From positions 2,107 to 66,106 of the forward strand of contig JAQBTN010000003.1 of the NCBI GenBank assembly GCA_027728805.1: DNA of 64,000 nucleotides. Reading direction: 5' to 3'. Positions 3,923 to 37,226 of this stretch are shown here, piece by piece. The translations under genes and the position numbers were made by a program. The notes beneath the pieces were generated by a model that was not told the origin of the DNA, did not search any database, and saw only the letters and a list, made by a program, of their open reading frames with translations. Source of the DNA: Actinomycetota bacterium (GTDB taxonomy: Bacteria; Actinomycetota; Actinomycetes; Mycobacteriales; Mycobacteriaceae). The number at the start of each line of letters is the position of its first letter. Within the stretch, counting starts at the first letter, position 1.

Positions 3923-4067
3923 CGTTGCTCCCTGCCGATATCTGCGCTGCTGAAACCTCCAGGACCAGCCTCCCTGCGGCCCGCCCATCATGGCATACCG
4001 CTGAGTTGCCACCGAAAGCTCCGATGCCCGCAGCCAGGCGCTTTGACCGCTCAGTAAGGTCGGCGCA

Positions 4068-5888
4068 GTGGCACACCTGCTGGGCGCCGAGGCGCTGCAC
4101 CTCCAGTATCCGACGCAGGTTGTCTTCGATTGCGTCACCGTCGGTGTCAACGACGGCGACCGAATCGGCATCGTCGGCCGCAACGGCGACGGGAAGTCCA
4201 GCCTGATGGGGATGCTCACCGGCCGGATCCGGCCCGATTCCGGCCGGGTCACCCGCCGCGGCGGCCTGCGGGTCGTCGCCCTGGAGCAGGCCGACACGCT
4301 CGATTCCTCCGTCACCGTCGGCACCGCACTGGTCGGTGACCGGCCCGAGCACGAATGGGCCGGCGATCCCCGGGTTCGCGACGTGGTCGCCGGCCTGGTC
4401 GCCGACCTCGACTGGAACGCGCCGGCCGGCACCCTGTCCGGTGGCCAGCGGCGCCGGGTGCAGTTGGCCGCACTGCTGATCGACGAATGGGACGTGATCG
4501 CCCTCGACGAGCCCACCAACCACCTCGACATCGAGGGCATCACCTGGCTGGCCGGCCATCTGCGCCAGCGCTGGTCGCGCAACTCCGGCGGGCTGCTCCT
4601 GGTGACCCACGACCGTTGGTTCCTCGACGAGGTCGCGACCACGACCTGGGAGGTGCACGAGGGTCCCGACGGCGGCGTCGTCGAGCCGTTCGACGGCGGC
4701 TACGCGGCCTATGTGCTGCAGCGGGTCGAGCGCGACCGGATCGCGGCGGCCACCGAGGCGAAACGGCAGAACCTGATGCGCAAGGAACTGGCCTGGCTGC
4801 GTCGTGGCGCCCCGGCCCGCACATCCAAACCCAAGTTCCGCATCGACGCGGCCAACCAGTTGATCGCCGACGTGCCGCCGATACGCAATACCGTCGAACT
4901 GGCGAAAGTGGCGACGACCCGACTGGGCAAGGACGTCATCGATCTGCTGGATGTCTCGGTGTCCTTCGGCGGCAAAACGGTGCTGCGCGATGTCCAGTGG
5001 CAGATCGCCCCGGGCGAGCGGACCGGGATCGTGGGCGCCAACGGTGCGGGAAAGTCCACCCTGCTGGGCCTGATCGCGGGCACGGTCACCCCTGACAGCG
5101 GCCGGGTCAAGCGCGGTAAGACGGTGCGACTGGCGATGCTCGACCAACAGTCCGGCCGATTGACGGAACTCGCCGAGGATCTGGTGCGCGATGTGGTGGG
5201 CCGGCTGCAGGCCAGCTATGTGGTTGACGGGAAGGAGCTCACCCCGACGCAGTTGTTGGAGCGCTTGGGATTTCGTCGCGAGCAATTGTCGGCGCGGGTC
5301 GGCGAGCTCTCCGGCGGCCAACGCCGGCGGCTGCAGTTGATGCTGACCCTGCTCGACGAGCCGAACGTGCTCGTGCTCGACGAGCCCACCAATGACGTGG
5401 ATATCGACATGCTTTCGGCCACCGAGGATCTGCTGGATTCCTGGCCGGGCACTCTGATCGTCGTCTCCCACGACCGCTACCTGTTGGAGCGGGTCACTGA
5501 TCAGCAATACGCGATTCTCAATGGTCATCTGCGCCACCTCCCCGGCGGCATCGACGAGTACCTGCGAATCGCCGCGCACCGGGAGGCCGGCCCGGTCGGC
5601 GCACCACGACGGTCCACCGACCCGGTCAAATCCGGGGTACCGGCCGCGTCCAGCCTCTCCGGGGCGGAATTGCGCACCGTTCACAAGGAGATCTCCGCGC
5701 TGGAACGCGCGCTGTCCAAGATCTCCGATCGGATCAACGCCAAACACGTCGAACTTGCCGAACACGACCAGTCCGACCACGTCGGCATCACCCAGCTCAG
5801 CGGCGAGCTACGGGAACTGGAGGCTGAACTGGCCGGCACCGAAACCAGGTGGCTGGAACTGTCCGAGCTGGTCGAGTCAGACGGCTGA
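4068..5888 (+). CDS. ABC-F family ATP-binding protein (Uup-like; Rv1667c/1668c-like)
   Basis: Two Walker A motifs (GRNGDGKS, GANGAGKS), two LSGGQ signatures, two DEPTN motifs, no TM segments, C-terminal coiled coil. Confidence 0.93.
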   Translation: MAHLLGAEALHLQYPTQVVFDCVTVGVNDGDRIGIVGRNGDGKSSLMGMLTGRIRPDSGRVTRRGGLRVVALEQADTLDSSVTVGTALVGDRPEHEWAGDPRVRDVVAGLVADLDWNAPAGTLSGGQRRRVQLAALLIDEWDVIALDEPTNHLDIEGITWLAGHLRQRWSRNSGGLLLVTHDRWFLDEVATTTWEVHEGPDGGVVEPFDGGYAAYVLQRVERDRIAAATEAKRQNLMRKELAWLRRGAPARTSKPKFRIDAANQLIADVPPIRNTVELAKVATTRLGKDVIDLLDVSVSFGGKTVLRDVQWQIAPGERTGIVGANGAGKSTLLGLIAGTVTPDSGRVKRGKTVRLAMLDQQSGRLTELAEDLVRDVVGRLQASYVVDGKELTPTQLLERLGFRREQLSARVGELSGGQRRRLQLMLTLLDEPNVLVLDEPTNDVDIDMLSATEDLLDSWPGTLIVVSHDRYLLERVTDQQYAILNGHLRHLPGGIDEYLRIAAHREAGPVGAPRRSTDPVKSGVPAASSLSGAELRTVHKEISALERALSKISDRINAKHVELAEHDQSDHVGITQLSGELRELEAELAGTETRWLELSELVESDG

Positions 5889-5896
5889 GACACGCA

Positions 5897-8514
<2,618 letters not shown>

Positions 8515-8585
8515 GAATGTCTCCTTATTGACGGGGTGCGACTTGGGGGTGATCGGCGTGCTGACGGGCAGGGTGTGCTGACAGG

Positions 8586-11186
<2,601 letters not shown>

Positions 11187-11190
<4 letters not shown>

Positions 11191-12019
11191 GCGCCGACCA
11201 CCTTCGTCCCGGCACCTTCGTCGGTGAGGAGTTCTGCAAGCACGCAGTGCTCGACCCGGCCGTCGATGACATGGGCGCTGGGCACGCCGGAGGTGACCGC
11301 GCGCAGGCACGCCTCGATCTTGGGCACCATGCCCTCCTGGAGGGTCGGCAGCAACTGCGCAAGCGTGGAGGTGTCGATTTCACTGACCAGGGAACTACGG
11401 TCCGGCCATCGGGTGTAGAGACCCTCGACGTCGGTGAGCATGAGCAACGCCTCGGCCCCGACCGCTTCGGCGACTGCGGCCGCAGCGGTGTCGGCGTTGA
11501 TGTTATGCACCACGCCATCGGCGTCCGGGGCGATGGTCGAGATCACCGGAATCCGGCCGGCGGCGACGAGGTCATGGACGATATCGGCGTTGACGCTGTC
11601 GACGTCGCCGACAAGTCCGATGTCGGTGTCGACACCGTCGACGACCACCTTGCGCCGCACCGCGGTCAACAGCCGGGCGTCCTCGCCGGTGAGGCCCATC
11701 GCGAACGGCCCGTGGACGTTGATCAGGTTCACCAGGTCGCGGCCGACGGAGCCGAACAGCACCATCCGCGCGACCTCGAGAACATCCGGGGTTGTGACCC
11801 GGAAGCCGCCCTTGAATTCGCCCGGAATTCCCAACCTCTTGAGCATGGCACTGATCTGCGGACCACCGCCGTGCACTACTACGGGGTGGATGCCGGCGGT
11901 GAGCAGCGACACCATGTCCTCGGCGAAGGCGGTCTTGAGCCGGTCGTCGGTCATCGCGTTCCCGCCGTACTTCACCACGACGATCTTGCCGCGCAGTGCC
12001 TCGGCCCTCTCGATGGCTG

Positions 12020-20644: not shown

Positions 20645-21427
20645 CTACCGGCCGCGCAGTGCGCGGGCGCTCTGATAGAGGCAGATCGCCGCGGCGGCAG
20701 CAACATTGAGACTGTCGACGGCGCCCGACATGGGGATGACGATCCGGCGGTCGGCGCGCCCGGCGACCTGCTCGGGCAGGCCGCGTGACTCGGGGCCGAA
20801 CAGCCACGCCGTGCGGGCGGCAAGGATCGGCTGCGCATCATCCAGGCTGAGTTCGCCGGTCAGGGTTGTGGCGAGGATCTGCAGGCCGGCCGTCCGCAGT
20901 CGGTCCATCAGTGCAGCGGTGTCCGGTTCGGTGCAGACCGGCACCGCGACGATGCTGCCCGCCGAGGAGCGCACGCATTTACCGTTGTACGGGTCCACCG
21001 CATCACCGGCGAAGACCACCGCGCCGGCACCCAGGGCGTCGGCCAACCGGATCAGCGTCCCGGCATTACCCGGGTCGGAGATGTCGACCGCGACCACGAT
21101 CAGGGCGGGGTTGTCCGCCAGGATGTCATCGAGGCTCTCGCCCGGCAGCCTGCACACCGCCACCAGGCCGGCCGGTGTGACGGTCTCGGACAGCGCCCTC
21201 ATGGCACGGTCGGTGACCGGGCGGACCGGCAGATCGATCAGCAGCGAAAGGTAACGTTCGCCCGCCGCCTCGGTGACGAACACCACGTCTACCAGCCCGC
21301 GCCGAGCGGCCGCCTCAACCAGATTCGGCCCTTCGGCCAGGAACCTGCCGGCGGCGATCCGCTCAGTGCGGCGCTGCAGTTTGACCGCGTCAACGACGCG
21401 GGACGACCGCTCGGTAAGCGGTCTCAC
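20645..21427 (-). CDS. TrmH/SpoU family RNA methyltransferase (Rv1644/TsnR-like)
   Basis: [30 protein letters not shown]. Confidence 0.92.
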
Positions 21428-21813
21428 GCAACCTCACCGGAGGGGGCGTTCACATCCTCCGGTAGTGCGGCACGGGCAATATCGACCAGAGCGGTGAACG
21501 CGGCCGGATCGCTCACGGCGATCTCGGCGAGGTTCTTGCGGTCAACCTCGACGCCGGCGGCCTTGAGGCCCTGGATCAGTCGGTTGTAGGTCATATTGTT
21601 GGCGCGGGCGGCGGCATTGATGCGCGAGATCCACAGCTTGCGGAAATCACCCTTGCGGGCGCGCCGGTCGCGGTAGGCGTAGTTCAACGAATGCAGCTGC
21701 TGCTCTTTGGCTTTGCGGTACAGCCGGGAGCGCTGACCGCGGTAGCCCTTGGACGCCTTGAGAATCGTCCGCCGCTTCTTCTGGGCATTGACAGCGCGTT
21801 TCACGCGGGCCAT
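21424..21813 (-). CDS. rplT: 50S ribosomal protein L20
   Basis: [26 protein letters not shown]. Confidence 0.98.
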
Positions 21814-21868
21814 GGGGGTGTTCCTCTTCTTATTCGGATCGGCAAAGGGTCAGAGATGCTGCGGGTAC

Positions 21869-22063
21869 TCAGCCGTTCAGCATCTTGTTGACACGCTTGG
21901 TGTCATTGGCGGCCACTTCGGTGCGCCCGTCGAGGCGACGGGTCCGCTTGGAGGCCTTGTGCTCGAGCAGGTGGCGACGTCCTGCCTTCTGCCGCACGAT
22001 CTTGCCGGTGCCGGTCTTGCGGAAGCGTTTGCTTGCCCCGCTGTGGGTTTTGGCCTTGGGCAT
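21869..22063 (-). CDS. rpmI: 50S ribosomal protein L35
   Basis: [14 protein letters not shown]. Confidence 0.97.
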
Positions 22064-22085
22064 AAGTCCTCGGGCTCCTTTTTTC

Positions 22086-22688
22086 TCAGGTCTGTTCGGT
22101 GGTGGTCTCGGGTTCGGCGGCAGGAGGTGCCGCCGGCGCTCCGCTTGCCTGCTCTGCCGCCTTGGCACGAGTCTTCGCGCCGCGGTGCGGTGCGAGCACC
22201 ATCGTCATGTTGCGGCCATCCTGCTTGGCTGACGTCTCGACGAAGCCGTGGTCGGCCACATCGGCGGCGAGTCGCTGGAGCAACCGGTACCCGAGTTCGG
22301 GCCGGGACTGCTCGCGCCCGCGGAACATAATCGTCACCTTCACCTTCGACCCCGCCTCGAGGAAGCGGACGACGTGACCCTTCTTGGTCGCATAGTCGTG
22401 CGGGTCGATCTTGGGGCGAAGCTTCTGCTCCTTGACGACGGTCTGCTGCTGGTTCTTGCGAGACTCGCGCTCCTTGAGTGCCGTCTCGTATTTGAACTTG
22501 CCGTAATCCATGATCTTGCAGACCGGCGGTCTGGCATCCGGGGCTACTTCGACGAGGTCGAGATCGGCATCCGCGGCGACGCGGAGTGCATCTTCGATGC
22601 GCACAATGCCTACCTGCTCACCACCTGGTCCGATCAGGCGGACTTCCGGTACGCGGATGCGCTCGTTGACACGGGTCTCAGTGCTGAT
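22086..22688 (-). CDS. infC: Translation initiation factor IF-3, non-canonical ATC start
   Basis: GGAGG-CCCC-ATC AGC ACT GAG ACC CGT GTC AAC GAG CGC ATC ([11 protein letters not shown]); [20 protein letters not shown]. Confidence 0.95.
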
Positions 22689-22964
22689 GGGGCCTCCCTG
22701 GTTCGGTTTTCATATCCGACCGCCCGGGCATACCGGAGACCACATCGGGAGAAACCACGCCATCAGCAAGAAGGCCCTGCATATCGCAGGGCCCGATGCC
22801 GACCGATCACGGCTTGCGCCGCCTGCGAAACACGCAGATCGAATACCGTCGGGTATCCGTGACCGGACCGCGCAACCCGTGAATCACATCTCATGGCCGG
22901 CGGTGGGAGCGGGACTCCACTTGCTGTCCTGGCGTGAGCCGGGACGGTCGTTCGTGAAAGTCTA
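22689..22964 (-). promoter_or_regulatory. Long structured 5' leader of infC-rpmI-rplT
   Basis: TAGACT -10 at 22959-22964; 8-bp perfect hairpin 22773-22793; AGCAAG/CTTGCT long-range pair (22920-22925 with 22765-22770); further small stems. Confidence 0.55.
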
Positions 22965-22970
22965 GCAGCC

Positions 22971-23336
22971 ATGACGCGCAAGCCTGACACCGATGAACCC
23001 GGAATCCGCGATCCCGGGGTGCGCCAGCTCGCCGACGTCCCGGCCATCGAGGTGATCAGCCGGGCCGCGGTCATGTTGATGAGCGCGGCGGCCGAGAAGA
23101 TTGGGCTGGCCTCACCCGATCCGGATGTCAGCGAGCATCGCGATCTCGACGAGGCGCGCCGGTTGATCAATGCGTTCGCCGGCCTGCTCGACGGATCGAG
23201 GGAGTTCCTGGGACCGCACGCCGCGCCGATGCGGGACGGCCTGCGAAGCCTGCAGCTGGCCTTCCGGGAGGCCAGCGCCGTGCCGGACGAGCCCGGCCAC
23301 GGTCCCGGCGAACGGCACACCGGCCCGGTGAAATAG
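22971..23336 (+). CDS. DUF1844 domain-containing protein
   Basis: RQLADVPAIEVI...RDLDEARRLI...LQLAFREAS; conserved position divergent from infC. Confidence 0.85.
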   Translation: MTRKPDTDEPGIRDPGVRQLADVPAIEVISRAAVMLMSAAAEKIGLASPDPDVSEHRDLDEARRLINAFAGLLDGSREFLGPHAAPMRDGLRSLQLAFREASAVPDEPGHGPGERHTGPVK

Positions 23337-23395
23337 GCCGGTGAAATAGGCCGCTGTGTACGCGGAGCGGTGTCGGCCGCATATCCTCACCGGCT

Positions 23396-26695
<3,300 letters not shown>

Positions 26696-26704
26696 CGTGA
26701 CGGA

Positions 26705-26830
26705 GTGTTTCGGGACCACGTTTCGCTGATGCACGGCTGGGTCCCGGTCACCGCCCAGATCCTTGGCGCCGTTCTGCTGATGGCCGGACCGTCGGCGGCA
26801 CCGGGTCCTCGGCCCTCGGGAGTACGGTGA
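26705..26830 (+). pseudogene. N-terminal remnant of an Rv1639c-like membrane esterase gene
   Basis: VFRDHVSLMHGWVPVTAQILGAVLLMA then 14 unrelated codons and a stop; lies at the syntenic Rv1639c position. Confidence 0.6.
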
Positions 26831-26835
26831 GATTC

Positions 26836-27195
26836 ATGGCCGACGAACCATCCGTGCCGGAGTCCGTCACCGCATCCGGGGATGCGACGACATCCGCCGA
26901 ACCCGATCGGAACGCTGTGCCGGCGCCTGCCGAGACGTCGCCCGTAGCGTCGACGCCGGATCTGCCCCCGGCGGCCCCGGCCGTCCCGGACACCGGCTAC
27001 ACGTTGTCGGGAGTTCCGACCCTCGAGGGTGTGCGGGACAAGATCGAGACTCGGCTGGGCAACGCCATGGGCGCCACCGAACTGGCGCAGGAAACCCCGG
27101 AAGTTCGGAATGCCACCGAGCGGTACGAGGCCCGACAACAGGCCGCCGCCGAGAAACTCGAGCAGATTCGCGCCTCGATGCACGAGCCGGACTGA
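26836..27195 (+). CDS. Rv1638A-like small protein (PspA-like helical C-terminus)
   Basis: GYTLSGVPTLEGVRDKIETR...LEQIRASM. Confidence 0.85.
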   Translation: MADEPSVPESVTASGDATTSAEPDRNAVPAPAETSPVASTPDLPPAAPAVPDTGYTLSGVPTLEGVRDKIETRLGNAMGATELAQETPEVRNATERYEARQQAAAEKLEQIRASMHEPD

Positions 27196-27261
27196 TCCCA
27201 GCGCGCTGACGGCCGCTTCAATCAACTGCCGACCGCGGTGCTCACCGGATTGCAGGTGCCC

Positions 27262-30162
<2,901 letters not shown>

Positions 30163-30168
30163 CCGCCC

Positions 30169-30191
30169 ATGCTATGCGCCCGCCCCGACAG
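30169..30191 (-). promoter_or_regulatory. RecA-NDp (PafBC-type) DNA-damage promoter of uvrA, leaderless
   Basis: CTGTCGGGG-N8-TAGCAT, 6 nt before GTG; fits tTGTCRgtg-N8-TAnnnT. Confidence 0.7.
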
Positions 30192-30207
30192 CAGTAACGT
30201 GGCGTTC

Positions 30208-30885
30208 ATGACAGTCGTCGACGACACTTACACCGGTCATGTGGAGTCCCAGACCGCAGCGCGGCGCACCCTGCCGGGGGTGAGCATCATCAAGATGTCG
30301 GTGGGCCCGATGGATAACAACGCCTACCTGCTGACCTGTGCGAAGACCGGCGAGTCACTTCTGATCGACGCCGCCAACGACCCCGCGCTGCTGGTGGATC
30401 TGGTGGCCGAACAGGCGCCGAAACTGGAGTTGATCGTGACCACCCACCAACATATGGATCACTGGCTGGCGCTGGAGGCGGTCGCGGAATCGACCGGTGC
30501 CCCCACCGCTGCCCACCCACTCGACGCCGACGCGCTGCCGGTCAAGCCTGCCCGGTTGCTGGCCGGCGGCGAGGTGCTCGAGGTCGGGGATCTCACCTTC
30601 GACGTCATCCACCTGCGTGGGCACACCCCCGGTTCGGTGGCGCTGGCATTGCGGCCCGCCGGCGAGCGGACCGCGGTGCAGTTGTTCACCGGGGACTGCC
30701 TGTTCCCCGGCGGTCCGGGGCGGACGACAACGCCGGAGGAGTTCGATTCACTGATGACCGGCCTGGAGACCTGGGTGTTCGACGTGTACGGGGATGACAC
30801 TGTCGTCTATCCGGGACACGGCGATGACACCACCCTCGGCGAGGAGCGGCCCCGACTGGCTGAGTGGCGCGAGCGAGGTTGGTAA
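30208..30885 (+). CDS. MBL-fold metallo-hydrolase, glyoxalase II-like (Rv1637c-like)
   Basis: THQHMDH, GHTPGS, TGDCLFPGG, YPGHG metal motifs; TAACGT -10 seven nt before ATG. Confidence 0.93.
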   Translation: MTVVDDTYTGHVESQTAARRTLPGVSIIKMSVGPMDNNAYLLTCAKTGESLLIDAANDPALLVDLVAEQAPKLELIVTTHQHMDHWLALEAVAESTGAPTAAHPLDADALPVKPARLLAGGEVLEVGDLTFDVIHLRGHTPGSVALALRPAGERTAVQLFTGDCLFPGGPGRTTTPEEFDSLMTGLETWVFDVYGDDTVVYPGHGDDTTLGEERPRLAEWRERGW

Positions 30886-30934
30886 CCGCGCTCAATACAG
30901 CTCCCTGGTCGGCTTCGCTGCCTAGGATTCGGGC

Positions 30935-31975
30935 GTGATCAAGGAATCTCGGGCCGTTGGTATCCACGAGCACGGCGATGCCGACGCCCTCGTGAACGGC
31001 ACGGTCGAGGTGGGAGCGCCGGGCCAGAGCGAGGTGGTGGTACGAACCAGTGCTCTCGGGGTCAATCCGGCGGACATCTACTTCCGGTCAACCCCGTGGG
31101 AGGAAATCGCGCAGTCGTTGCCTAAGCAGATTCCTTCTTCGGGATCGCTGCGAGTCGTGGGGGCCGACTTCGCCGGGGCCATCGAATCCGTCGGCACCGA
31201 AGTCCGTGGCTGGTCGGTCGGCGATGAGGTTTTCGGCTCGGCCTCGGCGATGGCCGCGACTGGGGCATCGAGCGAGTACATCGTCGTCGATGCCCGACTC
31301 CTCGCCCCTCTCCCGAAGGCCCTAAGCCCAGACCGGGCGGTGGCCTGGCCGATGGTTGGAATCACCGCGTGGGAGTCGCTGTTCGATGTCCTAAGGATCA
31401 GAACGGACGGAGCCGACAGCGGGGCTTCCTTGTTGGTCATCGGTGCTACCGGCGGAACCGGTTCGGCGGCAGTCCAACTGGGCAAGACACTGGCTGGCGT
31501 TTCTGTGACCGCAACGGCAGGTTCGGAGTCCGGCAGATCGTGGTGCTTAAGTCTCGGTGCCGACGCAGTCGTGGATCACCGCAGGCCGCTGACAGACCAA
31601 TTGCCGGACAGCACCTTCGACTTCATCGTGTGCTGTTCGTCGGCAGCGACTTACCTTGACACCATGTCGCAACTGATCGCGCCGTTCGGTCACATTTGTG
31701 CGGTCATGGCCGATCTCGATCCGGTGCCTTTCGGCGGTCTGCGCCTGCGCTCGGCCAGCTTCGGGATGGAGTTCATGGGCCTGCGTTCGATGGGGCCGCA
31801 GATAGAGAAGCACGGCGCGATCCTCACCCAGATTTCGCATCTCATCGACGAGGGTCGGCTCGCCGACCTCTCTGCCCAGCGGCTCAGCCCCATCAATGCC
31901 GACACCCTGCGTCGCGCCCACAGACTGGTCGAACAGGGCGGCCAAGGCAAAGTGACGATCTCGCAATGGCTGTAG
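30935..31975 (+). CDS. MDR-family NADPH:quinone oxidoreductase / zinc-type alcohol dehydrogenase-like protein
   Basis: GVNPAD, GADFAG, ITAWESLFD, IGATGGTGS; no Zn-binding Cys/His set; TAGGAT -10 six nt before GTG. Confidence 0.88.
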   Translation: MIKESRAVGIHEHGDADALVNGTVEVGAPGQSEVVVRTSALGVNPADIYFRSTPWEEIAQSLPKQIPSSGSLRVVGADFAGAIESVGTEVRGWSVGDEVFGSASAMAATGASSEYIVVDARLLAPLPKALSPDRAVAWPMVGITAWESLFDVLRIRTDGADSGASLLVIGATGGTGSAAVQLGKTLAGVSVTATAGSESGRSWCLSLGADAVVDHRRPLTDQLPDSTFDFIVCCSSAATYLDTMSQLIAPFGHICAVMADLDPVPFGGLRLRSASFGMEFMGLRSMGPQIEKHGAILTQISHLIDEGRLADLSAQRLSPINADTLRRAHRLVEQGGQGKVTISQWL

Positions 31976-32000
31976 GAACACCGGTCACCAGCGACCCCCG

Positions 32001-32184
32001 GTTCCCGGGCGGCCCTGGGCGGACAACAAATCCGGCGGAGTTCGACTCACTCATGACCGGCTTGGAGACCGAGGTGTTCGGGGTCTACGGCGACGACACC
32101 GTCGCCTACCCGGGTCATGGCGACGACACCACGTTGGGCGAAGAGCGGCCTCGGCTCGCGGAGTGGCGCGAGCGCGGCTGGTGA
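32001..32184 (+). repeat. MBL 3'-end copy 1 (type A, intact frame, 60 codons)
   Basis: FPGGPGRTTNPAEFDSLMTGLETEVFGVYGDDTVAYPGHGDDTTLGEERPRLAEWRERGW, 55/60 aa identical to the active C-terminus. Confidence 0.97.
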
Positions 32185-32939
32185 TCGCCCGACGGGTGTT
32201 CGACGCGCACCTGCACATCATCGACCCCCAGTTCCCGTTACAGGAGAACAACGGCTACCTGCCGCCGAAGTTCACCGTCGATGACTACCTCAACTGCATC
32301 GCGCACCTCGGCATCAAGGGCGGTGCTGTCGTCTCCGGCTCGTTCCAGGGCTTCGACCAAACCTACCTCCAAGCGGCACTGGCTGCGCTGGGGCCGACGT
32401 TCGTCGGAGTCACTCAAATTCCCCACGAGACAGCCGACGCCGAGATTCAACGCCTGGACTCAGTCGGCGTGCGTGCAGTCCGATTCAACGTCCGCCGGGG
32501 CGGCTCCGCCGACCTGGGCCACCTTGATCGCCTCGCCCGCCGTGTCCACGAGATTGCAGGCTGGCACGTCGAGCTTTACATCGACTCCCGCCAACTGCCC
32601 GATCTGCACGCAACCTTGTCGAAGCTACCTGCGGTGGCCATCGACCACCTGGGCTTGAGTTCTGAGGGACTCCCGCACCTCCTTCGCCTCGTCGAGGTAG
32701 GCGCGAGGGTGAAAGCCACCGGGTTCGGACGGATTGACCTAGACCCCGCCGACGCGATGCGTCGCATCCTCGACATCAACCGCCATGCCCTCGTCGTGGG
32801 CACCGATCTTCCTTCAACCCGCGCGCCACGACCGTTCAGCGACGACGACCTCACCTCGCTCGCCGACTTCCTTGACCCTCGGGAATTGGAGGACACACTC
32901 TGGAACAACGCAGCCACGCTCTACCGGCTGGATCAGTGA
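32181..32939 (+). CDS. Amidohydrolase family protein (Amidohydro_2, 2-pyrone-4,6-dicarboxylate lactonase-like)
   Basis: FDAHLH, AVRFN, IDHLG, GTDLPSTRA; GTG overlaps the TGA of copy 1. Confidence 0.88.
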   Translation: MIARRVFDAHLHIIDPQFPLQENNGYLPPKFTVDDYLNCIAHLGIKGGAVVSGSFQGFDQTYLQAALAALGPTFVGVTQIPHETADAEIQRLDSVGVRAVRFNVRRGGSADLGHLDRLARRVHEIAGWHVELYIDSRQLPDLHATLSKLPAVAIDHLGLSSEGLPHLLRLVEVGARVKATGFGRIDLDPADAMRRILDINRHALVVGTDLPSTRAPRPFSDDDLTSLADFLDPRELEDTLWNNAATLYRLDQ

Positions 32940-32952
32940 CTAGCGATTCCCG

Positions 32953-33136
32953 GTTCCCCGGCGGCGTCGGAAAGACCTGGGAGGAAGGCGGTTTCGAGCA
33001 ACTGCTGGGCGACGTGTCCAGCCGGCTGTTCGATGCCTACGGTGATGACACCGTCGTCTACCCGGGCCACGGCGACGACACCACCCTGGGCGCGGAGCGT
33101 CCACACCTGGCGCAGTGGCGCGAGCGCGGCTGGTAG
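32953..33136 (+). repeat. MBL 3'-end copy 2 (type B, intact frame; ORF 32936-33136)
   Basis: FPGGVGKTWEEGGFEQLLGDVSSRLFDAYGDDTVVYPGHGDDTTLGAERPHLAQWRERGW. Confidence 0.97.
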
Positions 33137-33217
33137 CAACCCGTCAGCGGCGCGAGCTTGCGGCGGTCTGAGCCAGCCCCTCGACGAATAAAGAGAGACT
33201 CACCGGCGTCAGTCCGA

Positions 33218-33505
33218 TCACCCGATAGGTGGTCCCGCGGGAATAACCAGACCGCCCCCCGCCGTGACTACGGGGCCACCGTCGAGCGCCGGAGCGACGG
33301 CAATTTGGGGTGGCCCGCCGTCGGCTGGCACTACGACGTCACCGGGCTGGTAGCCGCCGTCACCAGAGTTCATCATGCAATCAAGAGAGGTCGGGTCAAA
33401 CATGCAGTCGTCGGCAAGGCTGGTCGGTGCTAGTGCAACTCCGACCAATGGCAGTGCGGCAAGCGTGAGACCGGCGGCCACACGGCGGTAACGGGAGGTA
33501 TTCAT
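33218..33505 (-). CDS. Small secreted hypothetical protein, 95 aa
   Basis: Signal peptide ending SLA-DD, two Cys, Gly/Pro-rich; TATCAT -10 six nt before ATG. Confidence 0.75.
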   Translation of the reverse strand: MNTSRYRRVAAGLTLAALPLVGVALAPTSLADDCMFDPTSLDCMMNSGDGGYQPGDVVVPADGGPPQIAVAPALDGGPVVTAGGGLVIPAGPPIG

Positions 33506-33620
33506 ATTCAGATGATAGGGGCTGTGACCTGCTCGGGAGCGGGGTTCGCAGATGACGCAACATGGTCGAGTCGAAGTCGTCGGCCGTGAAACACGCTGTG
33601 GTGGAGGTGGTGCCGCTGGC

Positions 33621-35051
33621 CTAAACGATCAGTTCGAAGTCAGGCAGGCTGAAGGTCTTGTCGAAGAACGGTTGCAAAGGCGCATAGAGGCGGAAGTAGA
33701 CGAACCAGCCGTCATCGCCGGTGGTTTTCATGTAGTTCTTCTCGAAACCCTCAGGCGCCTTGGCGCCGACATAGAGATCGACGCTGCCGTCGGGGTTCTT
33801 GACGAGATCCGGTAGGCGGCTGTCCAGGTTTGCGCTGCGGATGTCGGTGCCGCCGTTGTCGTAGGGGCGGCGGGTGTTCTCGCTGTAGAGGGTCAGCGCC
33901 CAGAACTGGCCCACCGGAACGTCTTTGGGGACCTGGAGCCGGTAGGTCTTGTCGGCACGCAGCAGATTGCCCTTGTTGTCGCGTTTGGTGGTCATGTACA
34001 CCTGTCCCGCGCCGACCGTCGGGTTGACCATGCCTGTGCTGGAGCCCACCGCCTCGTAGAACCAGGTGACCCGCTCGTCGAGTTCGAGGCGGGTGTCGGT
34101 CTCCTGCTCGAGGGAGAAATCGAAGCTCTTGTACCAGGACGTGCCGGGCCAGTACGGCTCGGCGAATCGGGGATTGACCTGGAGGTTGCGCGCCATCAAC
34201 TCGCCCATCGCCGCTCCCTTGAGCAGGATGCTTCGTTGGCGCGCGTCGGGGTCGAATGTCTTGCCCTTGTCGATACCCAGCGGCAGCAGCATCGCCATCC
34301 AGGTCTTGTCCACCGGCCGAACCGGCTCGGTATTTACGACAGCGGCCAGCGTGCGCCAGTAGTCAAGGCCGCGCGGTGCGGTTGCGCTCCACTCGACGTC
34401 TTTGTCCTCGATGAACCGCGAGGTCGCCAGCGGCTGGCCGACCCGGCCCATTTTCATCGTCAACTTGAACGAGTCGTAGTAGGACGGGTCCTTGTCGAGG
34501 ATGCGCAGCAGCACGCCGATGTTGTTCGTCGCGCTCTGGCGCACGTAGTAACCGGGCCGATCGAAGGTCGCGGGGTTCTCCTCGGGGCCGACGATGATGT
34601 ACTTGCCGCCCTTGCCCTGATCTGGACCGGTCAGACCGAGATCGGCGACCGGACGTTGCCAGAAGTCCATGACACCGCCAGCGGTCTGCCCGGCTGGGTA
34701 CTCGATCTCCAGTGGCCCGTTCTTGAGGCTGATGAAGTTGAAGATGTAGGGCGTGGTGAGGTTGGCCGTGACGATCCCGCGCTTCTCCTTCAAGGAGCGC
34801 AGCACGACGAAATCGGTCTCCCCGGTGACGCCGTAGGCCTCGGCCTGCCGGTCGCGCCAGGTGGTCACGCTGACCAGCGGAGTGCTCCACAAGTAGCACT
34901 GAGCGGCCCGTTGGTAGTCCATCTCGTCGTAAAGCCGCTTGGCGGCATCGTCGTCGAAATAATTGTCGACCAGCGTGATATCACCGACCGGGGTCGAGAT
35001 GACTTCCTTCCCGTGCAGTGTGGCCTTCTCAAGCGGTATCCCCTGCGTCAT
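33621..35051 (-). CDS. DUF1254/DUF1214 domain-containing protein
   Basis: TANLTTPY, DFWQRP..DLG..GPD.G.GG, FWALTLY, NPDGSVDLY, YFRLYAP; start uncertain (35051 or 35096). Confidence 0.85.
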   Translation of the reverse strand: MTQGIPLEKATLHGKEVISTPVGDITLVDNYFDDDAAKRLYDEMDYQRAAQCYLWSTPLVSVTTWRDRQAEAYGVTGETDFVVLRSLKEKRGIVTANLTTPYIFNFISLKNGPLEIEYPAGQTAGGVMDFWQRPVADLGLTGPDQGKGGKYIIVGPEENPATFDRPGYYVRQSATNNIGVLLRILDKDPSYYDSFKLTMKMGRVGQPLATSRFIEDKDVEWSATAPRGLDYWRTLAAVVNTEPVRPVDKTWMAMLLPLGIDKGKTFDPDARQRSILLKGAAMGELMARNLQVNPRFAEPYWPGTSWYKSFDFSLEQETDTRLELDERVTWFYEAVGSSTGMVNPTVGAGQVYMTTKRDNKGNLLRADKTYRLQVPKDVPVGQFWALTLYSENTRRPYDNGGTDIRSANLDSRLPDLVKNPDGSVDLYVGAKAPEGFEKNYMKTTGDDGWFVYFRLYAPLQPFFDKTFSLPDFELIV

Positions 35052-35161
35052 CGCCACCCTACTTCGGATTGTCTGCTGTTTGCTGGTCGCGTTCATTTCT
35101 ACCGCATTGCCCTGCTTCGGATCGAAGGGAATCCATTTCCCAGGTTGCGAGCTGACTTCGG

Positions 35162-35246
35162 GTTCCCCGGCGTGACTGGGCGGAGAACAACGCCCGATGA
35201 GTTCGATTCGTTGATGACCGGACTGGAGAGTCGGGTGTTCGGGGTC
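35162..35246 (+). repeat. MBL 3'-end copy 3 (type A, truncated after about 28 codons)
   Basis: FPGVTGRRTTPDEFDSLMTGLESRVFGV, then similarity is lost. Confidence 0.9.
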
Positions 35247-35447
35247 TCGGGAGCCTTTGAGGACGACGCTCACTGATCACCCTGGCAGTCGACTGATCAC
35301 CGGGGATCCGGTTCCAGCCTCGCTCCGGTGGTCCATGGACGCAGCCACCAACTCAAGGAAACATGGCTTGTGTCTATTCGGCATTTCAGCGCCGCCCAGA
35401 CTCTGCGTCGACCCAGACACGGAAACTGCGAGTCTTGGGAGAAAACA

Positions 35448-35696
35448 ATGGTCGACCATCGGGAGCGTCTAGGGACTCGCCGTCTGGGCCTGATCGGGCA
35501 GTCGCGCTCCGCAGTCATCGCGATTTCGCTCCGACTGTGGCTCTGGGAACGTGAAACTCGCGCGCTAGCAAAGGGTCTCGCCCTAGCATTCGTCCTGTTG
35601 CTCACCGGAGTGGTGGGGTTCCAGCTTTTGAACATGGTCTACTACGCACCCGGATCAGCCAATTTGACCCCCGACTCGGGATATTCTCCGTTGTAA
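35448..35696 (+). CDS. Small single-TM hypothetical protein, 82 aa
   Basis: GGGAG RBS before ATG; hydrophobic LALAFVLLLTGVVGFQLL segment. Confidence 0.5.
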   Translation: MVDHRERLGTRRLGLIGQSRSAVIAISLRLWLWERETRALAKGLALAFVLLLTGVVGFQLLNMVYYAPGSANLTPDSGYSPL

Positions 35697-35807
35697 GTCT
35701 CTCGAAATTCGCGGCAAAAGGGCCACGCTGTATTTCGCTTCTTTAGCTGATCGCCGGGGCCTCTGAACGGACCATAGTTAGAGAACACTCCCCATCCGGA
35801 ACATCCA

Positions 35808-35885
35808 GTGCCGGGGGCATCGGAAAGACCTGAGAGCCAGTGGGTTTCGAGCAGCTGCTCGGCGGTTTATCCAGCCGGCTGTTCG
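35808..35885 (+). repeat. MBL 3'-end copy 4 (type B, truncated, in-frame TGA replacing TGG)
   Basis: GIGKT*EPVGFEQLLGGLSSRLF vs copy 2 GVGKTWEEGGFEQLLGDVSSRLF. Confidence 0.88.
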
Positions 35886-36011
35886 CATCTGCGGAAGTGG
35901 CGCCGGTGCGGCTGGTGGACCTCGGTGGCACCCCCTATCGGGGTGAGGGACTGTGCCCTGCTTGATGGCGCATTTGAGTCGGCGGCGGACCGTTCGCTGT
36001 TAACGTAAGTG

Positions 36012-36482
36012 ATGCCCATCTCACGGCGGCATGCGCCGATAGTGTTCAGTGCTTTGATCGCCCTCGTCGTCCTGTCAGGTTGTGGCGCGCAGGATGCCAA
36101 ACCAGGGCAGGTATCTTCGCCACAGTCCGCCTCAGCAGCGAGTACGTCAGCCCCCGCGGGGAGTCCGGAGGGGGTCAAGGTTTCCGCTGCCGACCTGCCG
36201 GCAATCGTTGCGAACCGAACTTACCGCGGCAGTTCGGACGGGATGCCGTACTCCGAGTACTACGCGGCTGATGGCTCGTTGCGGGGAATCAGCGATGGGG
36301 AGGCTTATTCCGGCAGTTGGAAAGTTGTCGAGGACAAGCTTTGCTTCACTTACCCCACGGCCGACGCCAGCGAAATCGAGTGCTACGCCGTGTTTAAAAA
36401 GGGCGACTCCCTGACCTGGATCGATTCCAACGGGCGGGTAGTCCAGACCAGTTACGTCGAGGGTAACCCCGACGGCCTCTAG
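36012..36482 (+). CDS. Lipoprotein with DUF995-like C-terminal domain
   Basis: Lipobox LSG-C; YSEYYAADG...YSGSWKVVEDKLCFTY; TAACGT -10 just upstream. Confidence 0.8.
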   Translation: MPISRRHAPIVFSALIALVVLSGCGAQDAKPGQVSSPQSASAASTSAPAGSPEGVKVSAADLPAIVANRTYRGSSDGMPYSEYYAADGSLRGISDGEAYSGSWKVVEDKLCFTYPTADASEIECYAVFKKGDSLTWIDSNGRVVQTSYVEGNPDGL

Positions 36483-36553
36483 GTTTCCGACTCCTGGTCG
36501 CGGCGCAAACGAACAGATTCAGAACATCACGGCGACGGAAGGAAACGGCAGTC

Positions 36554-36973
36554 ATGGCCCAACGTCCCTACACCTCATGGAACGACGCGATCATCGCCGA
36601 GTTCCGGGCAAATGAAGGCAAGGTAGGCGGGCCGTTCGAGGGTGCGACCCTGCTGCTGCTGCACACCACCGGAGCCAAATCGGGTCAGCAGCGGATCAGT
36701 CCGGTGATGGCCTTCGAGTTCGATGACAAGCTGATCGTCGTGGGCTCCTATGCCGGTGCTGACGTTCATCCCGCCTGGCTGCACAACCTTCGCGCGAACC
36801 CGCATGCCCACATCGAGATCGGCGCCGACGCCTACGACGTGCAGGCCCGGGAGATGGAGTCCGACGAACGCGACGCCACCTTCGCCCGCATCGTGGCGCA
36901 GGCACCCGGATTCGCCGGTTACCAGTTGGCCACCGAACGGGTGATCCCCGTCGTCGAACTGCGGCGCCTCTGA
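36554..36973 (+). CDS. Deazaflavin (F420)-dependent nitroreductase family protein (Ddn-like)
   Basis: IIAEFRANEGKVGG, LLHTTGAKSGQQR, HPAWLHNLRANP, RVIPVV. Confidence 0.92.
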   Translation: MAQRPYTSWNDAIIAEFRANEGKVGGPFEGATLLLLHTTGAKSGQQRISPVMAFEFDDKLIVVGSYAGADVHPAWLHNLRANPHAHIEIGADAYDVQAREMESDERDATFARIVAQAPGFAGYQLATERVIPVVELRRL

Positions 36974-36974
36974 G

Positions 36975-37226
36975 TTGCGGTACCCCGGGGAAGGACCGAG
37001 AAGCCAGTCGGCTGCCGTCGCGGCCAAGCCTGTCGAGCAACTGCCCCGGGGGCCTTACCCGGCGTCGGCGGCAACGATCTGGGCGATCGCCGTATTGACC
37101 TTGCTGATCGGGCTGACGCTCGCAGTGCTCGTCCCCGCCGCCCTCTCGTCCGGCGATGCCCCGCGCGAAACTCCCGGCGTGCAAAGCAGTCTCGGCACTG
37201 ACGGCCCCGACGGCGGGAACCGATGA
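36975..37226 (+). CDS. Small membrane protein whose N-terminus overlaps a decayed MBL copy
   Basis: TTG start; one TM helix; TGA overlaps the ATG of the PrsW gene. Confidence 0.45.
   Translation: MRYPGEGPRSQSAAVAAKPVEQLPRGPYPASAATIWAIAVLTLLIGLTLAVLVPAALSSGDAPRETPGVQSSLGTDGPDGGNR
36978..37044 (+). repeat. MBL 3'-end copy 5 (type B, heavily decayed)
   Basis: CGGTACCCCGG core; GGAAGGACCGAGAAGCCAGTCGG vs copy 4 GGAAAGACCTGAGAGCCAGTGGG; TCGAGCAACTGC identical to copy 2. Confidence 0.6.

What the first reader, a model, noticed from the sequence alone, without database searches (positions are those of the whole stretch)
30691..33136. Two interchangeable C-terminal alleles could switch the enzyme's substrate pocket
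Seen: type A (GGPGRTTTPEEFDSLMTGLETWVF; active copy, copies 1 and 3) and type B (GGVGKTWEEGGFEQLLGDVSSRLF; copies 2, 4 and 5) differ strongly between FPGG and the shared YPGHG...WRERGW end. Known: in glyoxalase-II-like MBLs the bridging Asp (TGD) precedes this segment, the segment shapes the substrate site, and the last metal His is in PGHG. From memory, type B resembles the usual mycobacterial tail. Deletion between core 0 and core 2 would give an in-frame type B enzyme and remove two cargo genes, which would be a deletion-based domain shuffler.
Basis: partly seen in the sequence, partly recalled or inferred. Interest (0 to 1): 0.66.

Follow-up and report, generated by a model that had tools for sequence, protein, structure and literature searches.

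The report
Phage-borne replacement ends of a hydrolase gene
The repeated "alternative ends" of this metallo-hydrolase gene are footprints of mobile DNA that inserted into the gene several times and each time brought its own replacement end, a known trick of integrating phages rather than a built-in enzyme switch.

Summary
The last about 61 codons of the uvrA-adjacent MBL-fold gene recur downstream as two intact copies (A1, B2) and two fragments (A3', B4'). They fall into two types that differ mainly in the 22 codons after FPGG. "Copy 5" is not above background.

The switch interpretation is not supported. Type B is the native tail of the genus. A close relative (L079) carries the B2 ortholog directly on the gene, with no cargo. 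Type A is a surrogate 3' end carried by integrating DNA. Mycobacteriophage Larva and its relatives hold a type-A tail next to their serine integrase and attP. In seven genomes, about 10-kb inserts encoding a Larva-like integrase lie between an active A tail and a displaced B tail. All junctions share the core TTCCCSGGCGG.

At least 25 of 400 other genus genomes have displaced tails. Tail type is scattered across the gene-body tree.

In this genome the inserts are single genes (ADH, amidohydrolase) with no recombinase. Their left arm is distinct but related to the phage arm, so how they moved is unresolved. Sister lineages have decayed or deleted displaced tails. A homologous-recombination breakpoint lies inside the active tail.

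This is a new member of a known kind (compare icd with e14/phage 21).

The parts
27262..30162 (-). uvrA, divergent upstream neighbour of the MBL gene
   Evidence: 966-aa ORF. UvrA Pfam families are recorded on the orthologous genes.
30208..30885 (+). Active MBL-fold hydrolase gene (225 aa from ATG 30208; gene callers also use 30169). YcbL/glyoxalase-II-like, carrying the type-A tail A0.
   Evidence: Pfam Lactamase_B E 4e-14. PDB 2XF4 E 1e-17. AF2 pLDDT 92, Foldseek top hit 2XF4.
30694..30696 (+). Codon of the metal-bridging Asp (TGD, D163), just upstream of the recombination core
   Evidence: Invariant G162 D163 in 119 homologs. Aligned to SGD of 2XF4.
30703..30713 (+). Core 0, TTCCCCGGCGG (codons FPGG): the point where all tail copies begin and where phage attP and host attB share sequence
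   Evidence: Junction alignments. Phage Larva attP.
30703..30885 (+). Tail A0 (type A, active). It is a mosaic with a homologous-recombination breakpoint between 30772 and 30801.
   Evidence: Identity to the L089 population is 99.5% up to 30772, then 14 mismatches fall in 30801-30879. The last 90 nt best match the L061 A tail at 88%.
30935..31975 (+). Cargo 1: zinc-type alcohol dehydrogenase / quinone oxidoreductase family gene
   Evidence: Pfam ADH_N, ADH_zinc_N. No homolog at E<1e-60 in 400 genus genomes. Homologs at 68-97% occur only in uncultured relatives, and the next best is 39%.
31983..32012 (+). Junction 1: insert-derived left arm GTCACCAGCGACCCCCGGT plus core TTCCCGGGCGG
   Evidence: The same arm follows the ADH gene in L056 and L061, where a type-B tail comes after it instead.
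32002..32184 (+). Tail A1 (type A, displaced, intact frame)
   Evidence: 88% aa identity to A0; 25 synonymous against 5 non-synonymous codon differences.
32181..32939 (+). Cargo 2: Amidohydro_2 family gene (the ORF is open from GTG 32163, overlapping the end of A1)
   Evidence: Pfam Amidohydro_2 E 2e-22. Gene call in L094.
32935..32964 (+). Junction 2: left arm GTGACTAGCGATTCCCGGT plus core TTCCCCGGCGG
   Evidence: It shares the AGCGA..CCCGGT changes with junction 1 and differs from the native L079 sequence at 6 of 19 positions.
32954..33136 (+). Tail B2 (type B, displaced, intact): the native tail of this lineage
   Evidence: 91.3% nt identical to the active tail of close relative L079, the same as the flanking divergence of 91-92%.
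33621..35051 (-). DUF1254/DUF1214 gene inside a 3.4-kb segment (33137-36530) that is absent from L079
   Evidence: Pfam. Gene call in L094. L079 comparison.
35154..35252 (+). Tail fragment A3' (type A, first half only)
   Evidence: blastn E 2e-18, tblastn 70% over 33 aa.
35811..35916 (+). Tail fragment B4' (type B, in-frame stop and internal deletion)
   Evidence: blastn E 8e-17; translation GGIGKT*EPVGFEQLLGGLSSRLF.
36554..36973 (+). F420H2-dependent quinone reductase gene. In L079 it lies 34 nt after the MBL stop codon, so it marks the far edge of the inserted region.
   Evidence: Pfam. L079 synteny at 90.4%.

Best explanation
The MBL-fold gene next to uvrA contains, just after the codon of its metal-bridging Asp, an 11-bp core (TTCCCSGGCGG, codons FPGG). 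This core is the chromosomal attachment site for integrating mobile DNA in this genus.

An incoming element carries the same core followed by its own copy of the last about 61 codons. After recombination the gene is completed by the element's tail, and the resident tail is pushed downstream as a dead copy.

Type B is the native tail of the genus. Type A is the tail carried by the mobile DNA.

In this genome, at least two insertions upstream of the native tail B2 built the structure body-A0-ADH-A1-amidohydrolase-B2. Older or imported fragments (A3', B4') lie further downstream.

Later, homologous recombination with a near-identical population overwrote everything up to the middle of A0.

The tails are therefore att-site footprints. 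Swapping of the enzyme's active-site loop and helix is a by-product of integration, not a regulated switch.

Shown: the copies, the common core, the phage-borne tail, the integrase-bearing inserts in relatives, the empty site, and the recombination breakpoint.

Inferred: that the small inserts here entered by site-specific recombination catalysed in trans by a recombinase encoded elsewhere or since lost, and that both tail types give a working enzyme.
For: 1. In at least 25 of 400 other genus genomes the active tail is followed 0.4-18 kb downstream by a displaced tail. In 21 of these the active tail is type A or a third type C and the displaced tail is type B.

2. Phages Larva, Kratio, Collard, Edugator and others carry a 62-codon type-A tail (gp38, annotated 'hydrolase') directly beside serine integrase gp39. 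The attP reads GGTATTCACAGCTGAGAGCCTACGGTAT|TCCCGGGCGGT|CCTGGCCGGACAACA.

3. Seven genomes have about 10-kb inserts in which a serine integrase 77-81% identical to Larva's, plus that same left arm, abuts the displaced B tail.

4. An empty-site relative exists. L079 (about 91-92% nt identical on both flanks) has the B2 ortholog on the gene body, followed 34 nt later by the gene found at 36554 here.

5. The same ADH insert with the same left arm is followed by an A tail here but by B tails in L061 and L056. The switch falls at the core, as expected for site-specific rather than homologous joining.

6. Tail type is uncorrelated with the body phylogeny: 23 changes against 24.8 for shuffled labels.

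7. Displaced tails decay. B4' and A3' are fragments here, B' in L056 is degenerate, and about 190 nt of tail is deleted in L060 and in L089.

8. A0 versus A1 shows 25 synonymous against 5 non-synonymous codon changes, so each tail evolved as a working end.
Against: - No recombinase gene lies in or near the array. The genome holds only distant candidates elsewhere: a serine recombinase on C30 at 33% identity, and weak tyrosine recombinases.
- The left arms here (GTCACCAGCGACCCCCGGT) differ from the Larva arm. No insert with this arm was found together with an integrase.
- The inserts are single genes flush with the junctions, which is not what random decay of a 10-kb or 60-kb element predicts.
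- The presence of A3' and B4' downstream of the native tail B2, in a 3.4-kb segment absent from L079, is not explained by simple serial entry at the gene.
- No integration or excision was observed directly.
Confidence: 0.75

Rival explanations
1. Integron-like capture platform. Promoterless single-gene modules of the form [surrogate tail + ORF + left arm] are a true cassette family. An integrase acting in trans inserts and excises them at the MBL core, and they are expressed by read-through from the MBL gene. Each capture swaps the enzyme tail.
For: - Two adjacent modules with different cargo share the same derived left-arm changes (AGCGA..CCCGGT).
- The cargo is co-directional and tightly packed: 50 nt and overlapping spacings.
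- G000 and L061 differ by exactly one module bounded by arm+core repeats.
- Other single-gene inserts between tails exist: G057 alpha/beta-hydrolase-like ORF, and ACT_3 in G271, G055 and L089.
- All crossovers map to the core.
Against: - No integrase is linked to any module of this arm type.
- Only a handful of modules are known. Pattern scans of 400 genus genomes and of the metagenome collection found no further arms.
- Some inserts are antisense (G059, the DUF1254 gene).
- Tails between modules are deleted in relatives.
- No circular forms were seen.
Confidence: 0.17
2. A and B tails are kept as alternative alleles, and deletion between cores, by homologous or site-specific recombination, is used to switch the enzyme's substrate pocket.
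For: - A1 and B2 are intact and in frame.
- The segment includes the active-site loop and the Lys143-equivalent residue.
- A homologous crossover inside a tail has occurred.
- Both A and B tails occur on near-identical gene bodies in nature.
Against: - A deletion is irreversible.
- Displaced tails are decayed or lost in sister lineages.
- The longest exact A0/B2 match is 13 nt.
- There is no local recombinase.
- The exact chimeric proteins are absent from a collection of 15 billion proteins (a low-sensitivity test).
- Type A equals the ordinary tail of neighbouring genera.
Confidence: 0.05
3. Local tandem duplications of the gene's 3' end with its downstream gene, followed by divergence, with no mobile DNA involved; or an assembly artefact.
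For: The left arms resemble the native sequence upstream of the core. The genome is a 273-contig metagenome bin.
Against: - The copies are only 80% identical and of two deep types.
- The same boundary recurs in many genomes with unrelated cargo.
- Phage-borne tails exist.
- Three other assemblies reproduce the array.
- The copies share no exact stretch longer than 21 nt that could mislead an assembler.
Confidence: 0.03

Closest known systems
Integration of phage 21 and the e14 element into the 3' end of E. coli icd, with the prophage supplying an alternative 3' end (recalled from established literature, not re-read here)
   Same: A temperate element recombines inside the 3' part of a housekeeping enzyme gene. 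It carries a diverged copy of the remaining codons, so the gene stays intact and the native end is displaced downstream.
   Different: Here the recombinase in the documented cases is a large serine integrase. The replaced piece covers an active-site loop and differs at 77% of residues in a 22-residue stretch. Several tails have accumulated in series, and the local inserts lack any integrase.
Tandem accretion of genomic islands at tRNA/tmRNA att sites
   Same: Each insertion enters at the gene and pushes older att copies outward, so that more distal copies are more decayed.
   Different: The target is a protein-coding gene and the duplicated segment is 183 nt of coding sequence. The native tail B2 is not the most distal copy.
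Mycobacteriophage serine-integrase integration into a host gene (Bxb1 into groEL1; from established knowledge)
   Same: A large serine integrase of a mycobacteriophage uses an attB inside a conserved protein gene.
   Different: Bxb1 disrupts groEL1. The Larva-type phages carry a surrogate end that restores the MBL gene. I found no description of this attB in the searchable library.
Mobile integrons (gene cassettes with attC, IntI, attI)
   Same: Serial single-gene, mostly co-directional inserts, each bounded by a conserved recombination sequence, entering at one site.
   Different: There is no IntI-type tyrosine integrase and no attC-type element was identified (attC structure was not searched for). 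The recombination sequence is the coding 3' end of a host gene. Very few modules are known.
YcbL-type short glyoxalase II (PDB 2XF4)
   Same: Same fold and metal motifs. The GG(V/P)GR loop follows the bridging Asp, and the protein is short, without the C-terminal helical glutathione-binding domain.
   Different: Only 28% identity. It falls below the NCBIfam GloB cut-off. The substrate in a mycothiol-using organism is unknown.

Membership tests
Glyoxalase-II-like MBL-fold hydrolase (YcbL type) | HxHxDH metal motif, bridging Asp and last His | tested here: met
   THQHMDH; invariant D163 (TGD) and H204 (PGHG) in 119 homologs. Aligned to 2XF4. Ligand list of GLO2 taken from PMC9686547.
Glyoxalase-II-like MBL-fold hydrolase (YcbL type) | MBL alpha-beta/beta-alpha fold closest to short glyoxalase II structures | tested here: met
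   AF2 pLDDT 92.1. Foldseek rank 1 is 2XF4 with E 7e-15, TM 0.74/0.80, rmsd 2.4.
GloB hydroxyacylglutathione hydrolase (NCBIfam TIGR03413 equivalog) | Score above the curated cut-off | tested here: not met
   64.5 bits against a cut-off of 200.8.
GloB hydroxyacylglutathione hydrolase (NCBIfam TIGR03413 equivalog) | C-terminal helical domain carrying Arg249/Lys252 for glutathione binding | tested here: not met
   The protein ends 21 residues after His204, with a single helix at 210-223. Residues as listed in PMC9686547.
Glyoxalase-II-like MBL-fold hydrolase (YcbL type) | Thioesterase activity | not testable with these tools
   Needs an enzyme assay.
Integrative element / prophage in the 3' end of a protein gene with a surrogate end (icd-e14 type) | Diverged duplicate of the gene's 3' end on both sides of inserted DNA, with a shared core at the boundary | tested here: met
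Integrative element / prophage in the 3' end of a protein gene with a surrogate end (icd-e14 type) | Empty site in a close relative | tested here: met
   L079: gene body plus B2 ortholog, with the next gene 34 nt downstream.
Integrative element / prophage in the 3' end of a protein gene with a surrogate end (icd-e14 type) | Site-specific recombinase encoded by the insert, next to the att site | tested here: not met
   Met in relatives and in phage Larva. No recombinase lies within 30886-37000 of this window.
Integrative element / prophage in the 3' end of a protein gene with a surrogate end (icd-e14 type) | Excision or circular forms | not testable with these tools
Mobile integron | IntI tyrosine integrase with attI next to the array | tested here: not met
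   Upstream is uvrA. No Phage_integrase hit near the array.
Mobile integron | attC imperfect palindromes after each cassette | not tested
   The repeated unit is coding sequence. No attC search was run.
Programmed DNA rearrangement switch (shufflon or phase-variation type) | Dedicated recombinase plus mixed junctions within one population | tested here: inconclusive
   No local recombinase. The exact chimeric proteins are not in the collection. Reads were unavailable.

The most novel reading that the evidence does not exclude
The uvrA-adjacent MBL gene of environmental mycobacteria serves as an integron-like landing pad. Integrase-less single-gene modules, each made of [surrogate tail + ORF + phage-like left arm], are moved in and out at the FPGG core by a serine integrase supplied in trans, for example by a Larva-type phage or a 10-kb element. 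Every capture or loss rewrites the host enzyme's active-site loop.
Probability: 0.17. Interest if true: 0.75.

Novelty: new member of a known kind. Interest (0 to 1): 0.4.

Why it matters
It explains a puzzling set of "alternative ends" as att-site footprints.

It identifies, by inference, the chromosomal target of the serine integrases of Larva/Kratio-type mycobacteriophages. That could be useful for integration vectors.

It shows that lysogeny or island capture here replaces about a quarter of a conserved enzyme, including its substrate loop, with a phage-encoded version. This happens repeatedly across the genus.

It also marks this locus as a fast-evolving hot spot. At least four arrangements were found among close relatives (92% or more nt identity upstream of the gene).

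The integrase-less single-gene modules are the one part that could turn out to be more than ordinary.

Tried and rejected
- An exact look-up of in-silico chimeras (body+A1, body+B2, two start choices) in the 15-billion-protein collection found none. This is a low-sensitivity test.
- A pattern scan for the local left arm plus core in 400 genus genomes found only G000, G271 and one doubtful hit in G411.
- A search for the ADH cargo in 400 genus genomes found nothing at E<1e-60.
- Literature searches for this attB found no description.
- The 18-kb insert of G125 was inspected for a recombinase. Only a small resolvase-like ORF was seen by eye, with no family search, and the result was not informative.
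- 'Copy 5' was rejected as background.
- The assembly-artefact and tandem-duplication readings were rejected.
- A second structure prediction (type B) was not run, because the tool returns no coordinates for comparing pockets.
Full report
**What is in the window**

Next to uvrA (27262..30162, minus strand) lies an MBL-fold hydrolase gene (30208..30885). It matches Pfam Lactamase_B. Its closest solved relative is the short glyoxalase II YcbL, PDB 2XF4.

The last 183 nt of the gene, starting at the Phe codon of FPGG (30703), recur four more times downstream:
- A1 at 32002-32184, intact, 88% aa identical to the active tail.
- B2 at 32954-33136, intact.
- A3' at 35154-35252, first half only.
- B4' at 35811-35916, with a stop codon and an internal deletion.

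A fifth copy claimed near 37031-37214 scores no better than ordinary windows of the same sequence.

Between the copies lie single genes. A zinc-type dehydrogenase sits at 30935..31975, an Amidohydro_2 gene at 32181..32939, and a DUF1254/DUF1214 gene on the other strand at 33621..35051.

Types A and B are 23% identical in the 22 codons after FPGG and 82-88% identical in the rest. Three other assemblies are 99.97-100% identical over the array.

**Which tail is native**

Among 20 same-genus orthologs chosen by kinship rather than by tail, 17 carry type B. Neighbouring families of the order mostly carry a type-A-like tail, GGPGRTT...SLM..LE.

The metagenome contig L079 is 91-92% nt identical to the window on both flanks. 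It has the gene body (95% aa identical) joined to a B tail that is 91.3% nt identical to B2. Thirty-four nt later comes the F420H2 quinone reductase gene, which here lies at 36554.

B2 is therefore the native end of this lineage, and L079 shows the empty site for the two upstream inserts.

**Where type A comes from**

A tail query across 400 genomes of the genus showed that type-A (or a third type C, GGLGRTTK...) active tails are regularly followed by a displaced type-B tail 0.4-18 kb downstream. I confirmed 25 genomes with displaced tails, after inspecting only about half of the candidates.

In G166, G252, G214, G266, G097, G146 and G210 the intervening DNA is about 10 kb. It encodes a large serine recombinase on the minus strand that ends right at the displaced B tail. 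Some of these inserts also encode a tyrosine integrase next to the A tail.

A tblastn of the tail against 50,697 phage records hit twelve mycobacteriophage records: Larva, Kratio, Collard, Edugator, AlleyCat, Psycho, Dadosky, Agent47 and InvictusManeo. In Larva the match is gp38 ('hydrolase'), a 62-codon type-A tail immediately beside serine integrase gp39.

The Larva sequence reads GGTATTCACAGCTGAGAGCCTACGGTAT|TCCCGGGCGGT|CCTGGCCGGACAACA. The same left arm, (G)TATTCAC....AGAGCCTACGGT(A/G)T, precedes the core at the displaced tails of the seven genomes above and of G141. The integrases of the five genomes compared with the phage protein are 77-81% identical to Larva's.

The inference is strong, though not experimentally shown. 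The core TTCCCSGGCGG in the MBL gene is the attB of this integrase family, and the phage-borne type-A tail completes the gene after integration. Two IMG/VR provirus calls of about 10.9 kb start in the same gene, one of them from another genus.

**Tail type against gene history**

On a maximum-likelihood tree of the 150 residues upstream of the swapped part (64 taxa), the three tail types need at least 23 changes. Shuffled labels need 24.8 on average. Well-supported branches alone force at least 6 changes for A and at least 8 for B. My sample is enriched for A-tailed genomes, but the scatter is clear. Tails have been replaced many times.

**What is special here**

The junctions in this window do not carry the Larva arm. 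Copy 1 is preceded by GTCACCAGCGACCCCCGGT and copy 2 by GTGACTAGCGATTCCCGGT.

These 19 nt resemble the native sequence TTCACCGGGGACTGCCTGT. However, they share derived changes (GGC to AGC, CTG to CGG) that would destroy the invariant G162, C164 and L165. In copy 2 they differ from L079 at 6 of 19 positions, while the rest of B2 is 91% identical to L079. They therefore belong to the inserted DNA, not to the host gene.

The same ADH gene with the same arm is followed by a type-B tail in L061 (intact) and in L056 (degenerate), but by the type-A tail A1 here. Similarity switches at the core in each case. That pattern fits site-specific joining, not homologous crossing-over.

G000 and L061 differ by exactly one unit, [A1 tail, amidohydrolase, arm]. 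L060 has the ADH and amidohydrolase genes adjacent, with about 190 nt of tail deleted between arm and stop codon.

No recombinase is present in the array. Elsewhere the genome holds only a 33%-identical serine recombinase on C30 and weak tyrosine recombinase matches. No insert with this arm type was found together with a recombinase. How these small units moved is therefore unresolved. A recombinase acting in trans is the simplest idea.

**Later history**

The widespread L089 population (MBL with an A tail, then an ACT_3 gene, then the PrsW gene) is 99.5% identical to the window from 21169 to 30772. It then shows 14 mismatches in 30801-30879, and downstream it is only 80-85% identical. The last 90 nt of A0 best match the A tail of the ADH-bearing relative L061, at 88%. 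A homologous crossover has thus occurred inside the active tail.

Four arrangements were found in all. Among gene bodies that are 98% or more aa identical there are three: A-PrsW (P0215, listed in 98 blocks of the collection), A-ACT_3-PrsW (P0216) and this array. L079 has B-F420H2 on a 95%-identical body.

A 3.4-kb segment (33137 to about 36530) holding the DUF1254 gene, A3', B4' and a small ORF is absent from L079. Its presence beyond the native tail does not fit simple serial entry. It may have been imported by homologous exchange or deleted in L079. I could not decide between these.

The structural statements hold. The swapped part begins three codons after D163, the equivalent of the bridging Asp134 of human GLO2. 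It contains H204, the equivalent of His173.

It also contains residue 172, nine positions after the Asp like Lys143 of GLO2, a glutathione-binding residue whose replacement in Leishmania GLO2 accompanies a change of thiol specificity (PMC9686547). Residue 172 is Arg in type A and Lys in type B. Two positions later, type A has Thr and type B has Trp.

In the AlphaFold model (pLDDT 92.1) the variable segment forms the loop 161-175 and the helix 176-191.

Type A, however, is the ordinary tail of sister genera. A0 and A1 differ mostly synonymously, 25 codons against 5, so both types look like working ends of the same enzyme.

Part of the A/B difference directly after the core probably reflects the need for the phage's attP half-site to differ from attB. 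This is inference.

Nothing indicates a maintained switch. Displaced tails decay or are deleted in relatives. A deletion would be irreversible. The exact identity available for homologous deletion between core 0 and core 2 is 13 nt. The exact chimeric proteins are not in the protein collection. Read data could not be consulted.

**Comparison with known systems**

The closest known design is integration into the 3' end of a housekeeping gene with a prophage-supplied replacement end, as in icd with e14 or phage 21 (from established knowledge). This is combined with accretion of att copies, as seen at tRNA sites.

The protein is a YcbL-like short MBL hydrolase by motifs and fold. It does not reach the GloB equivalog cut-off and lacks the C-terminal glutathione-binding domain. 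The array is not an integron: there is no IntI and no attI (an attC search was not run).

I found no description of this attB in the searchable literature. That does not show it is unknown.

**Verdict**

The 'switch' interpretation is replaced by att-site footprints of phage or element integration with surrogate gene ends. I rate this a new member of a known kind, of moderate interest. The open question is the integrase-less single-gene modules.

Noticed in passing
window 30772-30801 (and 21169-46346 overall): There is a sharp homologous-recombination breakpoint inside the active tail. Upstream the window is 99.5% identical to a widespread metagenome population (L089 type). Downstream of the gene it is only 80-85% identical to that population, but 91% identical to L079. 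The genome is mosaic at this locus.
   Followed up: yes
L053 (G166) 1002-11716; also L046, L065-L069: A family of about 10-kb inserts carries both a tyrosine integrase next to the A tail and a Larva-like large serine integrase next to the displaced B tail. At 10 kb they are far smaller than the 62-kb phage, so they may be satellites or integrative mobilisable elements. Two IMG/VR proviruses of about 10.9 kb look alike.
   Followed up: partly
L037 (G272), L071 (G200), L072 (G125), L073 (G175), L074 (G124): A third tail type (GGLGRTTKPAEFDSLFKDVK...) is also followed by displaced B tails. The sequence left of the core is native-like for about 20 nt, which suggests a second element family with a crossover further upstream.
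   Followed up: partly
cluster of P0093/P0213/P0215/P0216/P0218: Proteins whose first 176 residues are identical differ at 2-4 of the 62 tail residues (W/E/R at GLET_VF, D/G, T/A, E/D). Diversity is concentrated in the tail, as expected if tails recombine or are converted. The Trp in this genome's GLETWVF is rare, shared only with P0218 among the tails examined.
   Followed up: no
L060 2185-2225; L056 9860-9955; L089 10090-10130: Displaced tails have been removed by deletions of about 190 nt that leave the left arm and the last few tail bases. This has happened independently in several lineages.
   Followed up: partly
L089 9714-9720; L036 (G271) 964: An ACT_3-domain gene starts on the stop codon of the A tail (ATGA overlap). 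It recurs directly after tails in G271, G055, L056 and L063, making it a common first insert or an old neighbour.
   Followed up: no
window 30935-31975: The dehydrogenase cargo has homologs at 68-97% identity only in a few uncultured mycobacterial contigs. The next best hit in 5.8 billion proteins is 39% (Bowmanella), so it is a narrowly distributed gene of unclear origin.
   Followed up: partly
window 33137-36530: A 3.4-kb segment (DUF1254/DUF1214 gene, tail fragments A3' and B4', small ORF 36009-36482) is inserted exactly after the stop codon of the native tail, relative to L079. Its origin is unexplained.
   Followed up: partly
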